Origin: Escherichia phage SM_W22
Length of the DNA stretch: 44,245 bases
Reading direction: 5' to 3' (one strand)
Sequence record: PP920555.1
Both the position numbers and the translations under genes were made by a program. Of the stretch, positions 4,901 through 44,158 are shown piece by piece (within the stretch, counting starts at the first letter, position 1; each line of letters opens with the position of its first letter). The notes under the pieces are model-generated. The model saw only the letters and a program-made list of their open reading frames with translations. It was not told where the DNA came from and did no database searches.

Positions 4901-5033
4901 ACCGCCTTGCACCTTTGAGAATGCCTCGGCAGATCCAGACGAAGACTTGCTGGTTGATGTTAAGAATATGGAGTGTGGTGCGAAGCTGCGGGCGCAAGTG
5001 CTGGAGTTGCAGAAAATAATTCGGGGGCCGTGA
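4803..5033 (+). CDS. o-spanin (Rz1-like outer membrane lipoprotein)
   Basis: Signal peptide with lipobox LSAC, proline-rich mature part with Cys; overlaps i-spanin in different frame. Confidence 0.65.
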   Translation: MLRVLTVLIAVLMLSACGSSKAPLMPLTESVYRPPCTFENASADPDEDLLVDVKNMECGAKLRAQVLELQKIIRGP

Positions 5034-5048
5034 TGGCCCCCTTTCGTT
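5023..5048. terminator. Bidirectional intrinsic terminator between convergent genes
   Basis: GGGGGCC-gtgat-GGCCCCC hairpin followed by TTTCGTT; sits between plus spanin stop and minus ORF stop. Confidence 0.7.
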
Positions 5049-5811
5049 AGCGCGGAATACCGCAAATCTCGTTTAGTGTTTTCACGTCCAGCGCCACCGC
5101 CGTGGACTTCGGCTTGTCCGGGTAAGGAATGAACTGTTCAACTTCGGGCCACGCCTTGATCAGCTTCTTATCTGTATTGTGCATATCCAGCACGCCGGTA
5201 ACAGTTAGTTTGAACGCGTCATACTTAGCACGCAACTCACGGCGGGCCTTGTCGTTACGGTCCAGGCGCTTACAGAAATCATGGTCCGCCGGGTAGTCTA
5301 TACGACCGCGTGGCATATATATCGGCAGCGCTTTCCCGTCGTCATCGACTTCGCACACTGACGCTAACAAAATTTCCTCATACCCAGGCACAATATCGCC
5401 GAGATCGGGAGACAGTTTATTCATGTATTTATACTCCCCGTATCCGCGATATACTCGGACTCGGTGTCCGTCTCCGCTCAATGACACGGTACGGACGTTT
5501 CCGCCTGCGTTGATTTCGAAAGTGGCGTCGTAAACGCTGCCTACACCATATGGGCTGTCGGCGTCATGTCTATACGTCGCCTTGTTGGTGTACACACAGA
5601 CGCCGTACATCTGCGACGGGTCACCGCCGATTGCTGCAATGCGCTCACGTAGCTCGGCGAACGAATGAATGCCTTCCGGCATACAGTCCATCGTAATGGC
5701 GTACGCCAGATTTCGAGAGTCCATCATGATTGATTTGGCTTCGGTCGCGATTTCGTGGTCGCGCAGGATGTTAGCCAGAATCTGGTTTTTAATGTCTTTT
5801 GTCAGTCTCAT
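5047..5811 (-). CDS. Hypothetical protein (moron, opposite orientation to structural genes)
   Basis: 254 aa ORF with protein-like composition on minus strand inside plus-strand late module; no motif recognised. Confidence 0.55.
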   Translation of the reverse strand: MRLTKDIKNQILANILRDHEIATEAKSIMMDSRNLAYAITMDCMPEGIHSFAELRERIAAIGGDPSQMYGVCVYTNKATYRHDADSPYGVGSVYDATFEINAGGNVRTVSLSGDGHRVRVYRGYGEYKYMNKLSPDLGDIVPGYEEILLASVCEVDDDGKALPIYMPRGRIDYPADHDFCKRLDRNDKARRELRAKYDAFKLTVTGVLDMHNTDKKLIKAWPEVEQFIPYPDKPKSTAVALDVKTLNEICGIPR

Positions 5812-5854
5812 TTTTGTGTCCTCGTTGTTGGGGCTTTCGCCCCTGTTGGTTTAG

Positions 5855-6373
5855 TTAAAGTGCTTCTAGAATCTCGTAAAACTTATTTGCCAGCGCTTGG
5901 CGGCGTTCGAATTTTTCAGTGATAACCAATTCCGGGCGGTTAAATAGCTTTGCGTGGGTGTTCCAATTGAGGATTTCCGTTTCCATTATTTTCTTCCTGT
6001 CCAGCGCTTGGCGGCGTTCGAATTTTTCAGTGATAACCAATTCCGGGCGGTTAAATAGCTTTGCGTGGGTGTTCCAATTGAGGATTTCCGTTTCCATTAT
6101 TTTCTTCCTGTTGTAGTCGGTGTTTTTGATGCTAAATTCCTTGATAGCGTCATTAAGAAAATCAGTCATACACTCAACGTCTGTTCTCTTAACTTCGAAC
6201 GTACGGGACTCGATTGGGCTATTTGTGCGAAGTACGACGACTCCGCCGTGGTAGGTGTCGACTACCATATACTTATAAGTCACCCCATCCCACTCCGGAT
6301 CGAAAGGGCGCCCAAATACGTCGTCGGCTTTCCACACTTTCTGGTACGGTGTTTCTTTAATTAATGTTGGCAT
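5855..6373 (-). CDS. Hypothetical protein with internal 37-aa tandem duplication (moron)
   Basis: Track ORF 5855..6826 trimmed to Met at 6373 (upstream part is antisense of scaffold gene region); repeat KKIMETEILNWNTHAKLFNRPELVITEKFERRQAL occurs twice. Confidence 0.55.
   Translation of the reverse strand: MPTLIKETPYQKVWKADDVFGRPFDPEWDGVTYKYMVVDTYHGGVVVLRTNSPIESRTFEVKRTDVECMTDFLNDAIKEFSIKNTDYNRKKIMETEILNWNTHAKLFNRPELVITEKFERRQALDRKKIMETEILNWNTHAKLFNRPELVITEKFERRQALANKFYEILEAL
5890..6111. repeat. Perfect tandem direct repeat, 2 x 111 bp, in frame within minus-strand ORF
   Basis: Bases 5890-6000 and 6001-6111 read identical base for base; duplication also visible in translated ORF. Confidence 0.9.
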
Positions 6374-6401
6374 CTTGTTTACCTTCATATCTCTGTTGGT
6401 G

Positions 6402-6424
6402 TGCAACCAATATATGCAACCAAT
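6402..6424. promoter_or_regulatory. Two direct copies of TGCAACCAAT motif in divergent intergenic region
   Basis: TGCAACCAAT at 6402-6411 and 6415-6424, between minus moron start (6373) and scaffold start (6528). Confidence 0.4.
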
Positions 6425-6527
6425 ACGAGGATTGCAAGCGAATTTTGCGATTATTTTTATCACTGATAATATTAGAGGCGTGAAGTCGAGCGGGTGGCCT
6501 GCTCTGCCACAATCCCAGGGGGATAGC

Positions 6528-9087: not shown

Positions 9088-9441
9088 ATGGCGGGCTTTA
9101 ATTACGCGGGGTTAAAGCGGAAAGTCAATCCGCTGATTAAAAAGTTCGGCATGACGGCTACGGTGACGCGTCCGGGGTCGGTTGACCGCGTAGACGGCGA
9201 CGAAGTGATAATCCCGCCAACGTCGTTCGACGTCATCGGTCTTCGAGAGGAGTACAAGCCGAGCGAGATCGACGGGACGCGTATCGTTGCCGGTGATGTG
9301 AAGTTTTTGTGTCAGGCCGTCAAGCAGGTAAAGGTCGGGGATTTGGTTAGCCTGAACAATACAGACTACCGGGTTATCAATTCCAACCCACTGCAACCGG
9401 CGGGGACGACCATGCTGTTTCAACTACAGCTAAGGGGCTAA
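9088..9441 (+). CDS. Putative head-tail joining protein
   Basis: ORF with AGGAGG RBS about 10 nt upstream; position in neck gene block. Confidence 0.4.
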   Translation: MAGFNYAGLKRKVNPLIKKFGMTATVTRPGSVDRVDGDEVIIPPTSFDVIGLREEYKPSEIDGTRIVAGDVKFLCQAVKQVKVGDLVSLNNTDYRVINSNPLQPAGTTMLFQLQLRG

Positions 9442-11993: not shown

Positions 11994-12375
11994 GAAGCGG
12001 GACAGGCGGGACGTCCCGTTTTGTCCCGCCTCTGTAAAACTGCATATCTACTCACTTCCACTGCATAAACTCAAAACGGGACAAGCGGGACGTCCCGTTT
12101 TGTCACGCCCTGTAAATATGCATACCTATGCAGATTTCGTGCATAAACCAAACGGGACAGAAAGCGGGACAAACAAGGGGCGGGACAAAGCGGGACAGCA
12201 CCCCATCCCCGCCAGTGCTGCCGCGGTTTTTAGCCGATCGGGACAGCGGGACAGCACCCCAGTCTTTCAGACTAGACGGGGGTCTATGGCCCCCCTCGTC
12301 TGAGACTGAATAAGGTTTGTTTTGAAATCGCTGATACAATATCCATCGGCAACTGCATAAAAAGGGGACTGCATA
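11994..12375. repeat. Iteron- and palindrome-rich noncoding region (copy A of duplicated element at about 12111-12313)
   Basis: About ten CGGGACA units, perfect palindrome CGGGACGTCCCG twice, CTGCATAA motifs; last roughly 200 bp near-identical to 39447-39654. Confidence 0.75.
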
Positions 12376-27253: not shown

Positions 27254-27960
27254 TTTAAATTTTCCTCGTTAACCGCTATCGCGAAGCCGCGCGGAGTGAG
27301 CGACCGGATTAATTTTGTGCGGGCTGATTTGCCTCCGAGGCGACTATACTGCTTCGAGTACCCTTTTTCAACGAATACAGGCTTTTTCTCTGGCATACGA
27401 AAGCCGTTGCCGGTCCATAAGCAGGTCCGCTTCGGATATGAATCGCGCGCGTTGATGTATTCCGGGAACAACGGGTGCACGTCATCCTCCGGCAGATAGC
27501 CGCCATACTCCCACGGATCAAACGAGTGGTCTGGCTTACGCCACTGTGTGGAAAGCACACTGCGCGGATTCTCAATCATATACGGCACTTCGAAGAAGTC
27601 ACCCAGGTAAGCTGCGATCTTCGCGGTGCGCACCGCCTTAAGCTGGAAGGCCGGGTCTTTAGCACGCTTGCGCGGGAAAGCTGGCGCGCCGCTCACTGCC
27701 AGATCCGTACACGGGGGGAAAGCATAAATGATATCCGGCGTACCGAAATCGCCATTCATCGCTCGGTCCACGAAGTCCAGATCGATAAACTCATTGCGAT
27801 ACCGGATCCCGCGACCATAAATCCGGTAGTCAAGGTATGACCCGTGATCAGCTTCGGAGTAGTTAAAACAGTAGCACTTATGCCCCATCTCGGCAGCACG
27901 CTCAATCATCAAGCCGCTGCCGTCAAACAGTGACCAGATTGTCATTTTCGCAATAGTCAT
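27250..27960 (-). CDS. DNA (cytosine-5)-methyltransferase-like protein, short form
   Basis: Motif I-like LFDGSG, motif IV-like FPPCT (PC catalytic Cys), motif VI-like ENP, motif IX-like RSLTPRGF; only 236 aa so target recognition region minimal. Confidence 0.5.
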   Translation of the reverse strand: MTIAKMTIWSLFDGSGLMIERAAEMGHKCYCFNYSEADHGSYLDYRIYGRGIRYRNEFIDLDFVDRAMNGDFGTPDIIYAFPPCTDLAVSGAPAFPRKRAKDPAFQLKAVRTAKIAAYLGDFFEVPYMIENPRSVLSTQWRKPDHSFDPWEYGGYLPEDDVHPLFPEYINARDSYPKRTCLWTGNGFRMPEKKPVFVEKGYSKQYSRLGGKSARTKLIRSLTPRGFAIAVNEENLK

Positions 27961-29381
27961 TTGCGCGCCTTCTTAGCTTTCATGTATTCCATCAAGTCGT
28001 CCTGAATGTCTCGCTTACTGTCGCGACGCTCGGCGACCAATTCGTCCAGTGTCCCGCGAGCCTGGATAATGTAGACGAATACTGGTCGAGGGTGTCCGGC
28101 TTGCATCTGGCGAACCGGCCCGATACGTTCAACGATCTGCGAAAAGTGTTCAAAGTTCCAGGTGTCGGAGAAGATTGCCAGGTGATGACCGCCGTCCTGC
28201 AAGTTAAGGCCGTGGCCCGCCGATGCCGGGTGTGCAAACATGATGGGGATCTCGCCCCTGTTCCATGCTTCCATATCCTTATTGCCCTGCTTACCTTTAC
28301 CCAACGCAACGCCGTGCGGGAATTTCTTCTTGAGACGTGCCAGATCATGCTTGTACTGGTAGGCAACGAGCAACGGTGCGCCGTTCAACTCCTCCACGAT
28401 ACTTTCCAGCGCGTCCAGTTTAGCGTCGTGAATTTTCACCCATTCGTCGGTGCGCTCGCCGTCTTCGTCGACCTTATACACGGCCCCGGAAGCAAGCTGA
28501 AGGCACTTAATAGTCTTCGAAGCAGCGTTCGCCGCCTCCACCGTTCCGCTTTCCAGTTCGGCAAATAGCTCGCTTTCAAACTGGTCGTAAATCTTGCGGG
28601 CTTTCTTCGGCAGGTCCACAACAACCGGCGTATAGATTGGCTTGTCACACCCGAAGTATTCAGCCGCATCAACGGTTAGCGACACGTCGGACAGTCGTTG
28701 TTGTATTTCTTTCTCGGAGTTCTTAAGCGGGGCGTGCTGCATCGTGAAGCTGCCAGGCTTAACAGGCTTGCTAATAAACCAGCGGTCCGTGAACGCCTTA
28801 TAGCTACTGCCGAGACGTTCGCCGCCGTCGACAAACCACGTCTGACCCCATAGGTCTTTCAGCCCGTTCGGTGCGGGTGTGCCAGTCAGGTTAATCCAGC
28901 GCTTGACGTGCTTATGTGCGATCGCTGCCAGCGCACGGGCGCGCTTACTTCCCTGCTTGCTTCTATAGCCTTTCAGCTTAGTGGATTCATCGGCAACCAC
29001 GACCGTAAAGGGCCACTCGTCGCCGCAATACTCAACAAGCCACTCAACTACATCATAGTTAATACAAACCACGTTAGCGTCGCTCTCAAGCGCAGCGATG
29101 CGGTCCTTCTCTGACCCAGTGCCATCTACTACCAGCAGGGCTGGGAAGCGCCATTTTTCCTGTTCCGGGGGCCATGTGCCAGATGCAACGCGCAGCGGGG
29201 CCAGCACCAGTACGCGGTCATCCTGGTTGGACAGGATGCCGGTCTGGAACATTTTATTCAGCGCCCACATAGTCGCACCGGTTTTACCAGACCCCATTGT
29301 CGCCCATATATTGCATCGCTTATGCTTGAGGATGAACGCGGTTATCAACTTCTGATATTCGCGACGTCGGAAACGTGCCAT
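27957..29381 (-). CDS. SNF2/DEAD-like ATP-dependent helicase
   Basis: Walker A GSGKT, DExx box VVADEST, helicase C-terminal motifs; start placed at MARFRR (track ORF extends to 29471). Confidence 0.75.
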   Translation of the reverse strand: MARFRRREYQKLITAFILKHKRCNIWATMGSGKTGATMWALNKMFQTGILSNQDDRVLVLAPLRVASGTWPPEQEKWRFPALLVVDGTGSEKDRIAALESDANVVCINYDVVEWLVEYCGDEWPFTVVVADESTKLKGYRSKQGSKRARALAAIAHKHVKRWINLTGTPAPNGLKDLWGQTWFVDGGERLGSSYKAFTDRWFISKPVKPGSFTMQHAPLKNSEKEIQQRLSDVSLTVDAAEYFGCDKPIYTPVVVDLPKKARKIYDQFESELFAELESGTVEAANAASKTIKCLQLASGAVYKVDEDGERTDEWVKIHDAKLDALESIVEELNGAPLLVAYQYKHDLARLKKKFPHGVALGKGKQGNKDMEAWNRGEIPIMFAHPASAGHGLNLQDGGHHLAIFSDTWNFEHFSQIVERIGPVRQMQAGHPRPVFVYIIQARGTLDELVAERRDSKRDIQDDLMEYMKAKKARK

Positions 29382-35893: not shown

Positions 35894-36322
35894 TTAATCT
35901 TCCAGTTCGAAATAGGTTTCGACGATTTCTTTTAGCTCTTTGTGGAAGTCTTCGACGTCGTCATCTTCCAGCTTGGCGATTGATTTGATCTCGAACGATT
36001 CCAGCAGGTCGTCGAATTCGTCGTTCGCATCGTCGTCGTCACCACCGGCAATAATCGCGGCATACTGTTTGATCTCGTCGCGCATCTCTGCCAGCGGATC
36101 GGCATCTTTCTTGCCTTTGCCTTTTGCCGGTGCTTTTTTAGACTTAGCCGGTTTTTCGTCTTCAGCTTCATCGTCGTCATCTTCGACAACTTCTTTTTTG
36201 GCCTTAGACGGCTTCTTATCTTCCTGTTTACCAACGGCAGCGCCAACGGTTTCATAATGCTTTGCAATGGTTTCCAGTGCTACTACTCCGCGAGTGATCA
36301 GGTTTACGATTTGCTCAAACAT
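35894..36322 (-). CDS. Acidic early protein (first gene of leftward early operon)
   Basis: Track ORF trimmed to Met at 36322; about 142 aa with long D/E runs interrupted by a K-rich segment. Confidence 0.5.
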   Translation of the reverse strand: MFEQIVNLITRGVVALETIAKHYETVGAAVGKQEDKKPSKAKKEVVEDDDDEAEDEKPAKSKKAPAKGKGKKDADPLAEMRDEIKQYAAIIAGGDDDDANDEFDDLLESFEIKSIAKLEDDDVEDFHKELKEIVETYFELED

Positions 36323-36727
36323 GGTATATCTCCGATTGGTTAAGTTTAGGTGTCGGCAGTTAACTTCGTCGGTGGCCTTAACATATTGCCAGGTTACGCG
36401 TTCTCCCGTTCGGGTAGTGGACCTGGTTATATAATCACGGTTGGGAATCCTGACACTTCGATCCGGCCCCTGCGTTGCCCCTCTCCAGTTTGCGTCCTGC
36501 ATCCTGTCGACGGAGTGAATGATAGATTGGTTGCAGGATGGGTGTCAACAACTAATTTCAAAAAAAAAAAAGCGCCGAGGCAAAATGCACCGGCGCTAAC
36601 CAATAAGAGACAATGAGACGGGAATTATTATTACACGCGTGCGCGCCCGTTTCAATATCCAAAGGATTTGACACCTTGTGGTTTTAGGTGTAGTTTCATT
36701 GGTCATTAACCAACAGGAGACTGAATT
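36323..36727. promoter_or_regulatory. Divergent early control region
   Basis: About 400 bp noncoding between divergent operons; contains TTGACA -35-like hexamer, ATTGGTTGCA motif (36526-36535), A12 tract and hairpin. Confidence 0.45.
36559..36597 (-). terminator. Terminator-like hairpin with 12-A tract (T12 on minus strand)
   Basis: AGCGCCG-13 nt loop-CGGCGCT preceded on plus strand by A12; oriented to stop leftward transcription. Confidence 0.35.
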
Positions 36728-37067: not shown

Positions 37068-39332
37068 ATGAGCTTAATTAAATTCGCTGTAACAAGACCC
37101 GCTAAAAAAGGCGAAAAAGCCAGGGCGGAAAACTTCCAGATGACGACCGATGAATTTTTCGAATTTATCAAAGATGCGAAAGAGATATCGTCGGTGCATA
37201 TCAACAAGACGGAAGATAAAGCCGAGTATGCGCGCCGCAAGCGTAAGGCCGATGGCATCGTGGCGTATACCAGTGACGGATTGCGTCGTAAGACCAGTGC
37301 GGTGGACCTCTCGATCCTGTTCTTTGATATTGACCGCACCGACACCCGCACCCTGCGCCGCTGCCGTAAGGCGTTCATCGACTCGGGTCTGGAACACGTA
37401 TTTCACACCACCACCGGCGACCGCCACCCGCTGAAGGGCGGCACGCGTTGCGCCCGTTTCCTGGTGCTCACTGACAAGCCTGTACCGGCTGAAGACCTGG
37501 GCCGCGTCCAGTATGCACTATTACACCAACTGGGTCTGTCAGATGTGGACTTCGACGATTGCACGAAAGATACAAACCGCCTGATGTACCTGCCACACCA
37601 GCAGTCCGTTATTAAGTGCCACTATGGCAAGCGCGCCAATGTGCGTCGTCTACTCCGTCGGGCGGACAAGCTGGGGGTGGAAAAAGAGGAAGTACGCCGC
37701 GAGCTTACCCAGGGCGACGACGCAGTGGCAGACGGCATTCTGGACTGGTGCTTCCAGGCCGGATTCGAGGAGTTATCTTCTGGTCGCGGTTATGAAGTGC
37801 CGTGCCCGAACGAACATCTGCACAGCGGCGAAGGGTCGACGGCTATCATGGTCAAGGATGGCGAGATCCGTTTCAAGTGTATGCACACCGGCAACGAGTG
37901 TTGCTCGGAGCTGAACAGACACCAGCACCTGGCGCTACGTCTTATCGGGATCCCGGACCACCTGAACGTCGAGCCACACAACATGTCCCGTAAGCAAATC
38001 GCCGCCATCCTCCCCGGACTGGACGACGAGGAAGTGGAATCGTGCTATGAACATATCGTTGATGCGGTCGGAGACGGCGACGAGTACGGCGGATGTACCG
38101 ACGCTGACCTGGATAACGAACCGGTCGCACTGTTCAGTAAGCACGACCCGATCATAGAAGGCCTGGTCAACTTCAAATCGACCTGGTATATGGCTGGCGA
38201 GTCGAACATCGGTAAATCGTTCTACGTGCTGGGGCAAATGGGTGCGGTTGCCGCGGGGATTCCGTTCGGCGGTGCGAAGGTCGTCCAGTCCCATTGCTTC
38301 TATTTCGACGCGGAAGGTGGCGAAGCCTCCAACCAGCGTAAGGAAGCATTGCAGATCAAATACGAGCACGACCTCGACAAGCTGCACATTATCGATCTGC
38401 AATCACGCGGCTGGGATATCACCAGCAAATCCGGCTTGCGTGAAGTTATCAGCTTCATCAACCGCACCGCTAACGGCGAACCGGTTGGCCTGGTGGCGTT
38501 CGACTCACTCAACCAGACGGTTGCGCTGCGGTCCGCCGATGCCAAACCGTTCGACGAGAACAACGCCAGCGATATGGGCGAAGTGGTCAAGGCGCTGAAG
38601 GCCATCGCGGAAAATACAGGCGGCAGTGCGGGCGTCATCCACCACCCGGCGAAGGGTGCAAACGGCAGCAGATCACCCCGCGGGTCCGGCGCGCTGCATG
38701 GTGCTGTCGATTCTGCGTTCTTCCTGGAGCAACCGGACGACAATCAACCAGGCCAATTGAACCTGTATCACGAAAAGGCACGTAACGGCATCAAGCAAGC
38801 GCCGCGTGGCTTCGTCCTGCTCAAGTGCAAGGTGAAGGTAGATCTCCGCAAGTCCGAGGCGTTCGAATCGCACCAGTCCACCAGCACCGGGCCTGACTTC
38901 GGCGACGTCGTTGCCGGTTGGGACGTCAAGCCGATTGCCTCCACGCCACGCGACGAGACTCTGTACCTCGTACCGGTCGCCCTGGCACCGTTCGCCATCG
39001 AACAGGCGAAGGCCGCAGGAAAAGCCGCGGTTAAGGAAGAGAACACCGCAGGACCGCGCACCGAAAAAGAAAAGGTACTTTACGCGGCCCTGGAAAAACT
39101 GATGGAAGATAACCCGGACCATACTGGTTTCAGTAAATCGGCAATCGTCCGCCAGGCGGGATTGGCAAAAGGTGGAACATCGACGAAGGCAATCGACGAT
39201 ATGGTCGAGCGCGGCGTACTCGGTTTTTATACCGATCCGCACACCGGGGCCATCTATGGGTCGTCTAATATCGTCATAAAAACAAACATACCAACCACAC
39301 TTTCGGCGACCGACGACGACTTAAAAGATTAA
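37068..39332 (+). CDS. DNA primase / replicative helicase (primase-polymerase N-domain plus RecA-like ATPase)
   Basis: 754 aa; N-terminal region with DxD (FFDIDRTD) and Cys/His cluster, central Walker A-like GESNIGKS. Confidence 0.7.
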   Translation: MSLIKFAVTRPAKKGEKARAENFQMTTDEFFEFIKDAKEISSVHINKTEDKAEYARRKRKADGIVAYTSDGLRRKTSAVDLSILFFDIDRTDTRTLRRCRKAFIDSGLEHVFHTTTGDRHPLKGGTRCARFLVLTDKPVPAEDLGRVQYALLHQLGLSDVDFDDCTKDTNRLMYLPHQQSVIKCHYGKRANVRRLLRRADKLGVEKEEVRRELTQGDDAVADGILDWCFQAGFEELSSGRGYEVPCPNEHLHSGEGSTAIMVKDGEIRFKCMHTGNECCSELNRHQHLALRLIGIPDHLNVEPHNMSRKQIAAILPGLDDEEVESCYEHIVDAVGDGDEYGGCTDADLDNEPVALFSKHDPIIEGLVNFKSTWYMAGESNIGKSFYVLGQMGAVAAGIPFGGAKVVQSHCFYFDAEGGEASNQRKEALQIKYEHDLDKLHIIDLQSRGWDITSKSGLREVISFINRTANGEPVGLVAFDSLNQTVALRSADAKPFDENNASDMGEVVKALKAIAENTGGSAGVIHHPAKGANGSRSPRGSGALHGAVDSAFFLEQPDDNQPGQLNLYHEKARNGIKQAPRGFVLLKCKVKVDLRKSEAFESHQSTSTGPDFGDVVAGWDVKPIASTPRDETLYLVPVALAPFAIEQAKAAGKAAVKEENTAGPRTEKEKVLYAALEKLMEDNPDHTGFSKSAIVRQAGLAKGGTSTKAIDDMVERGVLGFYTDPHTGAIYGSSNIVIKTNIPTTLSATDDDLKD

Positions 39333-39446: not shown

Positions 39447-39654
39447 AGTGTAAATATAATGAATAGTTATGCAGTTTTGCTGCATAAAGTAAGCGGGACA
39501 AAAAGCGGGACAAACAAGGGGCGGGACAAAGCGGGACAGCACCCCCGTCCCGCCAGTGCTGCCGCGGTTTTTAGCCGATCGGGACAGCGGGACAGCACCC
39601 CAGTCTTTCAGACTAGACGGGGGTCAATGGCCCCCCTCGTCTGAGACTGAATAA
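39447..39654. repeat. Copy B of duplicated roughly 205 bp iteron element (GCGGGACA repeats)
   Basis: Aligns by eye at roughly 90-95% identity with 12111-12313, including five GCGGGACA units and a GC-rich terminal hairpin. Confidence 0.75.
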
Positions 39655-39804
39655 AATCCGGAGATTGCAAAATACACGGCAACATGATGCGAAGTGCGGT
39701 CGTCGATGAACTAGGCAACCAATGCGGGTTGTATTATGCTGAGTGAAAAATGCAGTTTGCAGCCACAGCAGATAGCGATCAACTTTTTCATACGCGTGAT
39801 TAAT

Positions 39805-42752: not shown

Positions 42753-42920
42753 ATGTTAAAAAGTATTCTTGATCATAATGCGGACGCGCTCGCCGCGCTG
42801 GCTAAAACCGAAGACCCTGGCGCACGCGCTATCATCGCGGACACTATCAGCCATGCAGGCGTCTTTGACGCGAAGCTGCCTAGCCCGCCGCCACAGGAAG
42901 AATCTGACCCAGTGACGTAA
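42753..42920 (+). CDS. Small hypothetical protein (coordinates approximate)
   Basis: About 55 codons after AGGTGA RBS, ending just before terminator; below track cutoff. Confidence 0.3.
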   Translation: MLKSILDHNADALAALAKTEDPGARAIIADTISHAGVFDAKLPSPPPQEESDPVT

Positions 42921-42926
42921 ACAATC

Positions 42927-42951
42927 AAGCCCGGTTAATTCCGGGCTTTTT
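42927..42951 (+). terminator. Intrinsic terminator after lysis cassette
   Basis: AGCCCGG-ttaatt-CCGGGCT hairpin followed by T6. Confidence 0.75.
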
Positions 42952-43015
42952 TATTTATTGCCCCAGTACCGTGGTATATTGCATCCAGGTCATCTCAATC
43001 TGGAAGTAAATTAAT

Positions 43016-44158
43016 ATGCACCCGCAAACTAAAATCACCGACGAGCAATTGATCGCAGAATTGCAATCCGGCACTACCGCGAAAGAGATTGCGAAGAAGT
43101 ACGGCCTTTCCCTACGAAATGTCTACATGCGCAAAGCCCGCCTGTCGAAGAAAGGTATTGGTCATGGTAACGATGCCGTAATCCGTAAGCGCGTTGCCGA
43201 TGGCTTTGGCGTTAAGCGCGTATCCGCCCTGGTGCGCGGCAATGGTGAAGAGGTCATGTCGTGGGTTATCACTGAGCAGGACAAGGAGCGCCAGCTTGAA
43301 GCAATGCGCGCCGTTGTCGAGGGTATGAACAGCGAAATCACACCGGCAGCACCAGTAAGCGCCCCGCCAGTCCCGATCCAGGCACTTGACCTACTTAACC
43401 TGTACACCGTGTCCGACTTCCACCTGGGCATGTTGGCCTGGGGCGAGGAGACTGGCGAAGACTGGGATATGGCGATTGCCGAAGACCTGTTCTACCGCTG
43501 GTTTGTCGAAGCCTTCGCACGCGCACCGGACGCAGGCACCGCCGTAATTAATATTCTCGGTGATATGGCGCACTTTGATAGCCTCGATGCCGTCACCCCA
43601 GCCAGCGGGCACGTACTGGACGCGGATACTCGCTACCAGAAGCTGGTCCGCTACATGATTCGCATGGTGCGCAACGTGGTGGAACTGGCGCTGCAAAAAC
43701 ACCACAAAGTCAAACTGCTAATCGTCCAGGGGAATCATGACGAGTCTGGCATGATTTGGCTGGCTGAGATGTTCAATACTCTGTACGAGAACGAGCCGCG
43801 CGTCGATGTGGATACGTCCCCGGACGTGTACAAAATGGTGCAACACGGCAAGACCACGCTATTCTTCCACCACGGGCATAAGGCGCGTTTTGACGCTATT
43901 GAAACCGTCATGATTTCAAAATTCAGACAAGCGTTCGGATCCAGCGAGTACAGCTACGCGCATGTAGGCCACTTGCACCACCAGAAGATTGTTGAATCCC
44001 GCAACATGATTGTTGAGCAGCACCGGACACTCGCAGCGAAAGACGCATATGCCAGCCGCGGCGGTTGGATGTCCGGTCGTAGTGCCAACGTAATCACCTA
44101 TAGCGCCAACTACGGCGAAGTAGCGCGCTTAACCATTAGCCCGGAAATGTTGAAGTAA
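43016..44158 (+). CDS. HTH domain fused to calcineurin-like metallophosphoesterase
   Basis: N-terminal HTH-like TAKEIAKKYGLSLRNVY; C-terminal GDMAHFD, GNHDE and HHGH metallophosphoesterase motifs. Confidence 0.6.
   Translation: MHPQTKITDEQLIAELQSGTTAKEIAKKYGLSLRNVYMRKARLSKKGIGHGNDAVIRKRVADGFGVKRVSALVRGNGEEVMSWVITEQDKERQLEAMRAVVEGMNSEITPAAPVSAPPVPIQALDLLNLYTVSDFHLGMLAWGEETGEDWDMAIAEDLFYRWFVEAFARAPDAGTAVINILGDMAHFDSLDAVTPASGHVLDADTRYQKLVRYMIRMVRNVVELALQKHHKVKLLIVQGNHDESGMIWLAEMFNTLYENEPRVDVDTSPDVYKMVQHGKTTLFFHHGHKARFDAIETVMISKFRQAFGSSEYSYAHVGHLHHQKIVESRNMIVEQHRTLAAKDAYASRGGWMSGRSANVITYSANYGEVARLTISPEMLK

What the first reader, a model, noticed from the sequence alone, without database searches (positions are those of the whole stretch)
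5890..6111. Perfect 111 bp in-frame tandem duplication inside moron gene
Bases 5890-6000 and 6001-6111 read identical base for base, duplicating a 37-aa segment (KKIMETEILNWNTHAKLFNRPELVITEKFERRQAL) of the 173-aa protein. Zero divergence implies a very recent duplication, copy-number variable repeat or assembly artefact. Tandem module duplication would be consistent with a binding or decoy protein under selection.
Basis: seen in the sequence. Interest (0 to 1): 0.6.

Follow-up and report, generated by a model that had tools for sequence, protein, structure and literature searches.

The report
Assembly artefact: untrimmed 111-bp contig overlap
The perfect 111-bp tandem duplication is in the sequence, but it is almost certainly an untrimmed assembler end-overlap left in when a circular phage contig was rotated, not a biological duplication; the real gene is a 135-aa accessory protein of unknown function.

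Summary
Window 5890-6000 and 6001-6111 are identical (111 bp x 2.0, 100%), in frame, inside a minus-strand ORF (5855-6373, 172 aa).

The biological reading is not supported. The window is a complete, circularly permuted Dhillonvirus (HK578-like coliphage) genome. It has been rotated to start at exactly the same base as a series of GenBank records from one Japanese study (PP627283, PP920550-PP920554).

- All six of those sibling records also contain exactly one perfect tandem duplication of period 111, each at a different, unrelated locus. One lies in the replicative helicase gene and one is intergenic.
- Seven Dhillonvirus genomes from other laboratories have no 111-bp duplication.
- Each duplication is private to its record. 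All relatives are single-copy there, including every known homologue of this gene (130-153 aa).

The same arbitrary length at seven random places is the signature of a de Bruijn-graph k-mer overlap (k = 111) at the ends of a circular contig, kept when the contig was re-originated. Two other papers co-authored by the depositing study's senior author (Kiga) report phage assembly with Shovill defaults on 150-nt reads. From memory, those defaults end at k = 111.

The true gene is a rare 135-aa ORFan upstream of nmad5. Artefact confidence is about 0.96 and interest is low.

The parts
5890..6000 (.). Copy 1 of the 111-bp unit. Presumed to be one end of the original assembler contig (the k-mer overlap).
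   Evidence: Identical to 6001-6111.
6001..6111 (.). Copy 2 of the 111-bp unit. Presumed to be the other end of the original contig. One of the two copies is redundant, so the true genome is about 44,134 bp.
   Evidence: PTXU06, Zar3M and HK578 have one copy.
6000..6001 (.). Blunt duplication junction (…TTCTTCCTGT|CCAGCGCTTGG…). Inferred to be the point where the contig end was joined to the contig start when the record was rotated.
   Evidence: No microhomology. The junction pattern is absent from viral contigs and genome contigs, with one unrelated chance hit in metagenomes. The junction 60-mer is absent from 13 other Dhillonvirus genomes.
5855..6373 (-). ORFan accessory gene as recorded (172 aa). 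The real product is inferred to be 135 aa: a small beta-sheet followed by three helices, function unknown.
   Evidence: 99% identical to the 135-aa PTXU06 protein apart from the 37-aa insert. No Pfam, PHROG, PADLOC or NCBIfam hit. AF2 model pLDDT 80.9. In the 172-aa model the extra copy has pLDDT 60-80 against about 90 for the native-like copy.
5047..5811 (-). Downstream neighbour: Nmad5-domain protein (254 aa).
   Evidence: Pfam PF18757, E 4.5e-54, 184 bits against a cutoff of 27. phrog_1965. Reported as the trigger sensed by the Tmn defence system in these phages (PMC11846954).
6409..6437 (-). Sigma-70-like promoter candidate upstream of the ORFan.
   Evidence: Consensus scan, 9 of 12 matches. 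This is a pattern match only.
5023..5041 (.). Bidirectional terminator-like hairpin that closes the minus-strand ORFan-nmad5 unit.
   Evidence: PTXU06 has a terminator annotated at the equivalent position. HK578, which lacks nmad5, has terminators annotated directly downstream of its ORFan gene.

Best explanation
The duplication is a bioinformatic artefact, not phage DNA. The phage packages by a headful-type mechanism and its genome is circularly permuted, so short-read de Bruijn assembly closes on itself. The assembler then outputs a linear contig whose first and last k bases are identical, here k = 111. The submitters re-originated the contig to begin just upstream of the small terminase gene by moving the front part behind the back part, without trimming the overlap. 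That placed the two identical 111-bp contig ends next to each other and created a perfect, blunt, 2.0-copy tandem repeat at an arbitrary genome position, which here happens to be inside an accessory gene.

Because 111 = 3 x 37, the artefact never breaks a reading frame. It was therefore silently annotated as a protein 37 aa longer.

Shown here: the repeat itself; the rotation of the record; recurrence of the same period at unrelated loci in all sibling records; and single copy in all relatives.

Inferred: that the assembler's largest k was 111 (the Shovill default for 150-nt reads, from my own knowledge), and that the window is the seventh phage of the series (SM_W22, PP920555).
For: 1. The window is a complete rotated genome. 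Its last and first bases are adjacent in JLBYU37 (34317/34316). KS_S9 and Dru_SM5 start at the same base as the window. The terS and terL ORFs end at 595 and 1980, as in KS_S9, SM_A8, Dru_SM5 and SM_S24.

2. A perfect-tandem scan finds exactly one period-111 duplication in each record of the series:
- window, 5890-6111
- KS_S9, 36217-36438
- SM_A8, 42844-43069
- Dru_SM5, 27904-28129 (inside the DNA helicase CDS)
- SM_A2, 9105-9328
- SM_S22, 39478-39700
- SM_S24, 37945-38166 (intergenic)
That is 7 of 7 records at 7 different loci.

3. Controls from other laboratories carry no 111-bp duplication. HK578, PTXU06, Kente and LF50P3 have none of any size. SECphi18 carries a 55-bp terminal direct repeat. 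The UNVERIFIED records TH11 and TH13 carry 515-bp and 587-bp perfect tandem duplications. So the artefact class exists elsewhere, but the number 111 is specific to this series.

4. Each duplication is private. Wherever another genome shares the locus (six of the seven sites; nothing aligned across the SM_A2 site), it aligns contiguously across the single-copy version, and no junction 60-mer is found elsewhere.

5. All homologues of the gene are single-copy. These are PTXU06 and Zar3M (135 aa), HK578 (140 aa), 5 clusters of 130-137 aa, and the 15 listed of 26 members of the main cluster (the complete ones 135-153 aa, plus one 67-aa fragment). Neither the 172-aa form nor the collapsed 135-aa window allele is in the 15-billion-protein collection.

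6. The junction is blunt, and both copies share the window-specific T at 5998/6109.

7. Two other papers that share the depositing study's senior author (Kiga) report assembling phage genomes from 150-nt paired reads with Shovill under default settings (PMC11074155; PMC13096335). Another Shovill-based phage paper explicitly removes terminal repeats from circular contigs (PMC9692438).
Against: No reads were available, so copy number was not measured directly.

The paper that deposited the series (PMC11846954) does not name the assembler.

That Shovill picks k = 31, 51, 71, 91, 111 for 150-nt reads is recalled from memory and could not be verified in the library.

Identifying the window as SM_W22 is an inference. 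It rests on PP920555 being the only accession of the series missing from the collection.

In two of the seven records the match runs 4 nt beyond 2 x 111, which is somewhat more than chance predicts.
Confidence: 0.96

Rival explanations
1. A genuine, very recent in-frame tandem duplication, or copy-number-variable repeat, of the C-terminal helix-loop module of the ORFan protein, arisen by illegitimate recombination or replication slippage in this isolate.
For: The sequence as given is a clean in-frame duplication. The gene is accessory, so an altered product would be tolerated. AF2 still gives a plausible fold for the 172-aa form, mean pLDDT 81. A perfect 90-bp tandem duplication in SM_A2 (36340-36525) may be a genuine duplication of this kind, though it was not checked against relatives.
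Against: This would require seven independent real duplications in seven phages, all of exactly 111 bp, each at a different locus including an essential helicase gene, and only in one laboratory's records. There is no microhomology. There is no second observation in any database. The extra copy is the low-confidence part of the model.
Confidence: 0.03
2. The 111-bp repeat reflects physical direct terminal repeats of the virion DNA that were joined during assembly.
For: Short exact terminal repeats do produce tandem duplications when the ends are concatenated. This is general knowledge, not tested here.
Against: Real termini would lie at a homologous site in related phages. Here the seven sites are scattered between 5.9 kb and 42.8 kb and lie inside conserved genes. 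Records of this genus start at many different points, consistent with circular permutation.
Confidence: 0.005
3. An engineering or cloning scar from the laboratory's in vitro genome assembly (PCR fragments joined with HiFi assembly).
For: The depositing laboratory rebuilds these phages from PCR fragments (PMC11846954).
Against: The deposited genomes are described as the wild-type phages. Homology-based assembly removes overlaps rather than duplicating them. A fixed 111-bp length at a different site in each genome does not fit primer-designed overlaps.
Confidence: 0.005

Closest known systems
k-mer end overlap of circular contigs from de Bruijn-graph assemblers (SPAdes, or Shovill which runs SPAdes), left untrimmed on circularisation or re-origination
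   Same: Perfect identity, exactly two copies and a blunt junction. The period is an odd number of 127 or less. The genome is circularly permuted and the record has been rotated. The same period recurs in every record of the same submission series, and relatives are single-copy.
   Different: In unrotated records the two copies sit at the two ends of the sequence, as in SECphi18 with its 55-bp terminal repeat. Here rotation has moved them into the interior, where they look like a gene-internal duplication.
Genuine tandem segmental amplification in phage genomes, for example the anti-defence locus amplification in T6 described in PMC13096335
   Same: Head-to-tail repeat with zero divergence in a phage accessory region.
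   Different: The same fixed length at unrelated loci in seven genomes does not fit independent biological events, and there is no supporting second observation. I read only the abstract and methods passage of that paper, so its repeat sizes are not compared here.
HK578_006 / PTXU06_00018 ORFan family (the real gene underneath)
   Same: 99% identity to the PTXU06 protein and 91% to the HK578 protein outside the insert. In PTXU06 the gene sits in the same position, between nmad5 and the scaffold gene. HK578 has the gene upstream of the scaffold gene but lacks nmad5.
   Different: Only the window's record has the extra 37 aa.

Membership tests
Untrimmed assembler k-mer overlap artefact | Two copies, 100% identical, with no partial third copy | tested here: met
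   TRF gives 2.0 copies at 100% identity. Flanking bases mismatch on both sides.
Untrimmed assembler k-mer overlap artefact | Period equals a legal or likely assembler k (odd, 127 or less; the largest k of the run) | tested here: inconclusive
   111 is odd and below 128. That Shovill's default for 150-nt reads ends at k = 111 is from my memory. Two other papers sharing the depositing study's senior author report Shovill defaults on 150-nt reads, but the depositing paper names no assembler.
Untrimmed assembler k-mer overlap artefact | Genome assembles as a circle and the record has been re-originated | tested here: met
   The window's ends are adjacent in JLBYU37. The window starts at the same base as KS_S9 and Dru_SM5, 22 nt before the terS ORF.
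Untrimmed assembler k-mer overlap artefact | Same period at unrelated positions in other genomes from the same pipeline, and absent from other pipelines | tested here: met
   7 of 7 series records have one 111-bp perfect duplication, at 7 different loci. 0 of 7 outside controls have a 111-bp one.
Untrimmed assembler k-mer overlap artefact | Reads support only one copy (no junction-spanning reads) | not testable with these tools
   No read data are accessible.
Genuine tandem gene-internal duplication | Seen in an independent isolate or assembly, or variable in copy number among relatives | tested here: not met
   All homologues are single-copy. The junction is absent from the phage, viral, genome and metagenome collections apart from one unrelated chance hit.
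Genuine tandem gene-internal duplication | Length and end points idiosyncratic to the event | tested here: not met
   The identical 111-bp length appears in six sibling records at other loci.
Virion direct terminal repeat | Located at a fixed, homologous genome position in related phages | tested here: not met
   The seven sites are non-homologous and mostly intragenic.
Nmad5 (PF18757), neighbour gene only | Full-length match above Pfam's gathering score | tested here: met
   184.1 bits against a cutoff of 27, covering profile positions 1-206 of 206.
Moron (autonomous accessory transcription unit in a structural module) | Patchy distribution among close relatives, with its own promoter and terminator | tested here: inconclusive
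   The gene is present in only 3 distinct phages among roughly 150 Dhillonvirus records. Promoter-like and terminator-like sites are pattern matches only.

The most novel reading that the evidence does not exclude
The 111-bp duplication is physically present in this phage's DNA: a just-arisen in-frame duplication that adds a fourth helix to a rare ORFan protein encoded next to nmad5, the trigger of Tmn defence. On this reading its length only coincidentally equals the artefact length seen in the six sibling records.
Probability: 0.03. Interest if true: 0.3.

Novelty: not a real feature. Interest (0 to 1): 0.06.

Why it matters
Biologically it does not matter: there is no duplicated module, no copy-number variation and no evidence of selection.

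Practically it matters a little. Seven public Dhillonvirus records from one study (including the window's inferred record, PP920555) each appear to carry a spurious 111-bp insertion. Because 111 is a multiple of 3, these yield plausible-looking proteins with false 37-aa insertions. One is in the DNA helicase of Dru_SM5 and one is in this ORFan. Such sequences can propagate into protein databases, comparative genomics and phage-engineering designs.

The test used here is quick and can be reused for findings of this kind: scan sibling records for the same exact period.

Tried and rejected
- **Natural occurrences of the duplication junction.** There were 0 matches in viral contigs and 0 in genome contigs. 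The single metagenome hit (L018) is an unrelated 71%-GC contig.
- **An independent assembly of the same phage.** Neither the 172-aa protein nor the collapsed 135-aa allele (with S56) is in the protein collection.
- **The assembler used for the deposited genomes.** It is not stated in PMC11846954. Literature confirmation of Shovill's k list failed: one search term was rejected as too short, and the other search was not informative.
- **E. coli genomes.** No match, so this is not a prophage region.
- **Rfam over the whole window.** No family matched.
- **Plus-strand ORFs across the repeat (5919..6116 and others).** Treated as chance ORFs on the antisense strand of a conserved gene.

Full report
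**Observation.** Window 5890-6000 and 6001-6111 are identical base for base. TRF gives period 111, 2.0 copies, 100% matches and no indels. The repeat finder and my own scan agree. The flanking bases mismatch on both sides (5889 G vs 6000 T; 6112 T vs 6001 C), so the repeat is exactly 222 bp with a blunt junction and no microhomology. It is the only perfect tandem duplication of period 15-600 in the window. It lies in the minus-strand ORF 5855..6373 (172 aa from the ATG at 6373) and repeats 37 residues in frame: RKKIMETEILNWNTHAKLFNRPELVITEKFERRQAL, followed by D in the first copy and A in the second.

**Context.** The window is a Dhillonvirus (HK578-like E. coli siphovirus), 90-99% identical to about 150 phage records, and has no match in E. 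coli genomes. The ORF and the downstream Nmad5-domain gene (5047..5811; PF18757, E 4.5e-54) form a minus-strand unit inside the plus-strand head module. A promoter-like site lies at 6437..6409 and a bidirectional terminator-like hairpin at 5023-5041. The slot between nmad5 and the scaffold gene is variable. It is empty in KS_S9, holds an unrelated 104-aa gene in SM_A8, and holds this ORFan only in PTXU06, Zar3M and HK578 among the collection's records.

**Relatives are single-copy.**
- PTXU06 and Zar3M encode 135 aa and HK578 encodes 140 aa. The protein and DNA alignments show a clean 111-nt / 37-aa gap relative to the window.
- In 5.8 billion protein clusters there are only 5 related clusters, of 130-137 aa. 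The 15 listed of 26 members of the main cluster are 135-153 aa, apart from one 67-aa fragment.
- Neither the 172-aa form nor its collapsed 135-aa allele is in the collection.
- The junction sequence is absent from viral and genome contigs. Its single metagenome match is an unrelated 71%-GC contig.
- Both copies share a window-specific T (5998/6109) where PTXU06 and HK578 have G, so the copies post-date all divergence.

**The decisive test.** The window is a complete, circularly permuted genome that has been re-originated. Its last and first bases are adjacent in JLBYU37. It begins at exactly the same base as KS_S9 (PP920551) and Dru_SM5 (PP920550). Its terS and terL ORFs end at 595 and 1980, as in KS_S9, SM_A8, Dru_SM5 and SM_S24. 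I fetched the whole series deposited by one study (PMC11846954: PP627283 and PP920550-PP920555) and scanned each genome for perfect tandem duplications. Every record has exactly one of period 111, each at a different place:

| Record | 111-bp duplication | Location |
|---|---|---|
| window | 5890-6111 | ORFan gene |
| KS_S9 | 36217-36438 | hypothetical CDS |
| SM_A8 | 42844-43069 | hypothetical CDS |
| Dru_SM5 | 27904-28129 | inside the DNA helicase CDS (1539 nt, against 1425 nt in KS_S9, SM_A8, SM_S24 and SM_S22) |
| SM_A2 | 9105-9328 | partly intergenic, overlapping two annotated CDSs |
| SM_S22 | 39478-39700 | hypothetical CDS |
| SM_S24 | 37945-38166 | intergenic |

- PP920555 (SM_W22) is the only accession of the series missing from the collection. 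The window is therefore probably that phage, though this is an inference.
- Seven Dhillonvirus genomes from other laboratories contain no 111-bp duplication. HK578, PTXU06, Kente and LF50P3 have none at all. SECphi18 has a 55-bp terminal direct repeat. The UNVERIFIED TH11 and TH13 records have 515-bp and 587-bp perfect tandem duplications. Artefacts of this class therefore occur elsewhere, but with other lengths.
- Each 111-bp duplication is private to its record. For six of the seven sites the other genomes align contiguously across the single-copy version; nothing aligned across the SM_A2 site. No junction 60-mer is found elsewhere.

**Mechanism.** A de Bruijn-graph assembler emits a circular genome as a linear contig whose two ends share the final k-mer. 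This is established behaviour of SPAdes-type assemblers, stated here from my own knowledge. PMC9692438 describes removing such terminal repeats from Shovill contigs. If the contig is cut at a chosen origin and the front part is pasted behind the back part without trimming, the two identical ends become an internal, perfect, blunt, two-copy tandem repeat of length k. Two other papers that share the depositing study's senior author (Kiga) report assembling phage genomes from 150-nt paired reads with Shovill under default settings. From memory, Shovill then runs SPAdes with k = 31, 51, 71, 91, 111. I could not confirm this in the paper library, and the depositing paper names no assembler. Because 111 = 3 x 37, the artefact is always in frame, so it escapes annotation checks and simply lengthens whatever ORF it falls in.

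**What is really there.** The gene is a 135-aa accessory ORFan.
- AlphaFold2 on a 5-sequence alignment gives mean pLDDT 80.9. The model has a small beta-sheet (residues 3-50) followed by helices at 65-82, 89-106 and 121-134.
- The 'unit' spans the second helix, the following loop and the start of the last helix.
- In a model of the 172-aa form, the extra copy is the low-confidence part (pLDDT 60-80), while the second copy packs like the native C-terminus (about 90).
- No family, solved structure or informative fold match was found. Function remains unknown.
- Given its position in a variable slot next to nmad5, which PMC11846954 reports as the trigger of Tmn defence, a role in host interaction or anti-defence is a guess without evidence.

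**Rivals.**
- *Real duplication.* This would need seven independent events of identical length at unrelated loci, restricted to one laboratory's records. I give it about 3%.
- *Physical terminal repeats.* Excluded by the non-homologous, intragenic positions.
- *Engineering scar.* Does not fit a fixed length at varying sites in wild-type genomes.

**Caveats.** No reads were available. Two of the seven duplications extend by 4 matching bases beyond 2 x 111, a little more than chance predicts, and this is unexplained.

**Verdict.** It is not a real biological feature (confidence about 0.96), and interest is low. The useful by-product is that seven public records from one study (including the window's inferred one) appear to need a 111-bp correction.

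Noticed in passing
L004 36217-36438; L005 42844-43069; L006 27904-28129; L007 9105-9328; L008 39478-39700; L010 37945-38166: Six public sibling records (KS_S9, SM_A8, Dru_SM5, SM_A2, SM_S22, SM_S24) each carry one perfect 111-bp tandem duplication at a different locus. In Dru_SM5 it lengthens the DNA helicase CDS. These are likely the same artefact and the records likely need correction.
   Followed up: yes
L013 ends; L014 15266-16295; L015 29939-31114: Control records from other laboratories show related problems. SECphi18 has a 55-bp terminal direct repeat, as expected for an untrimmed k = 55 overlap. The UNVERIFIED TH11 and TH13 records have perfect 515-bp and 587-bp tandem duplications.
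   Followed up: partly
L007 36340-36525: SM_A2 has an additional perfect 90-bp tandem duplication inside the hypothetical CDS 36030..36641. That CDS sits at the same place in the gene order as the window ORF 35894..36502, which contains the acidic GAT/GAC-rich repeats. It could be a genuine length polymorphism of that gene.
   Followed up: no
window 12118-12313 and 39459-39654 (also the 79-bp tandem at 11998-12159): A non-coding element of about 196 nt occurs in two dispersed direct copies that are 93% identical. Each copy has six or more GCGGGACA / CGGGACA repeats followed by a GC-rich hairpin. One copy lies upstream of the tape-measure gene and the other downstream of the primase/helicase ORF. 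It may be a set of regulator-binding iterons. No Rfam family matched.
   Followed up: partly
window 5812-6420, compared with L004 5811-5960, L005 5852-6166, L006 5825-5986 and L007 5816-6145: The slot between nmad5 and the scaffold gene is a variable accessory-gene site in Dhillonviruses. It is empty in KS_S9. SM_A8 carries an unrelated 104-aa gene there, Dru_SM5 and SM_A2 carry short genes of 53 and 109 aa that I did not compare, and a few phages carry the 135-aa ORFan. HK578 has the ORFan but lacks nmad5.
   Followed up: partly
L003 2646-3439 (minus strand): In phage Opt212 the Nmad5 gene is annotated as two ORFs (180 aa and 89 aa) that match the N-terminal and C-terminal halves of PF18757. 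This is either a frameshift or a sequencing error.
   Followed up: no
P0022 (157 aa): A metagenomic protein built of three units of about 55 aa contains SEIKNWNTNVKVSNYHDVIITSKWR, which weakly resembles the ORFan's TEILNWNTHAKLFNRPELVITEKFERR (E 1e-4). It is probably a translated satellite repeat and the resemblance coincidental.
   Followed up: no
L005 42844-43069 and L006 27904-28129: In two of the seven records the perfect match runs 115 nt rather than 111, because the 4 bases after the second copy equal the start of the unit. That is slightly more than chance predicts and is unexplained.
   Followed up: no
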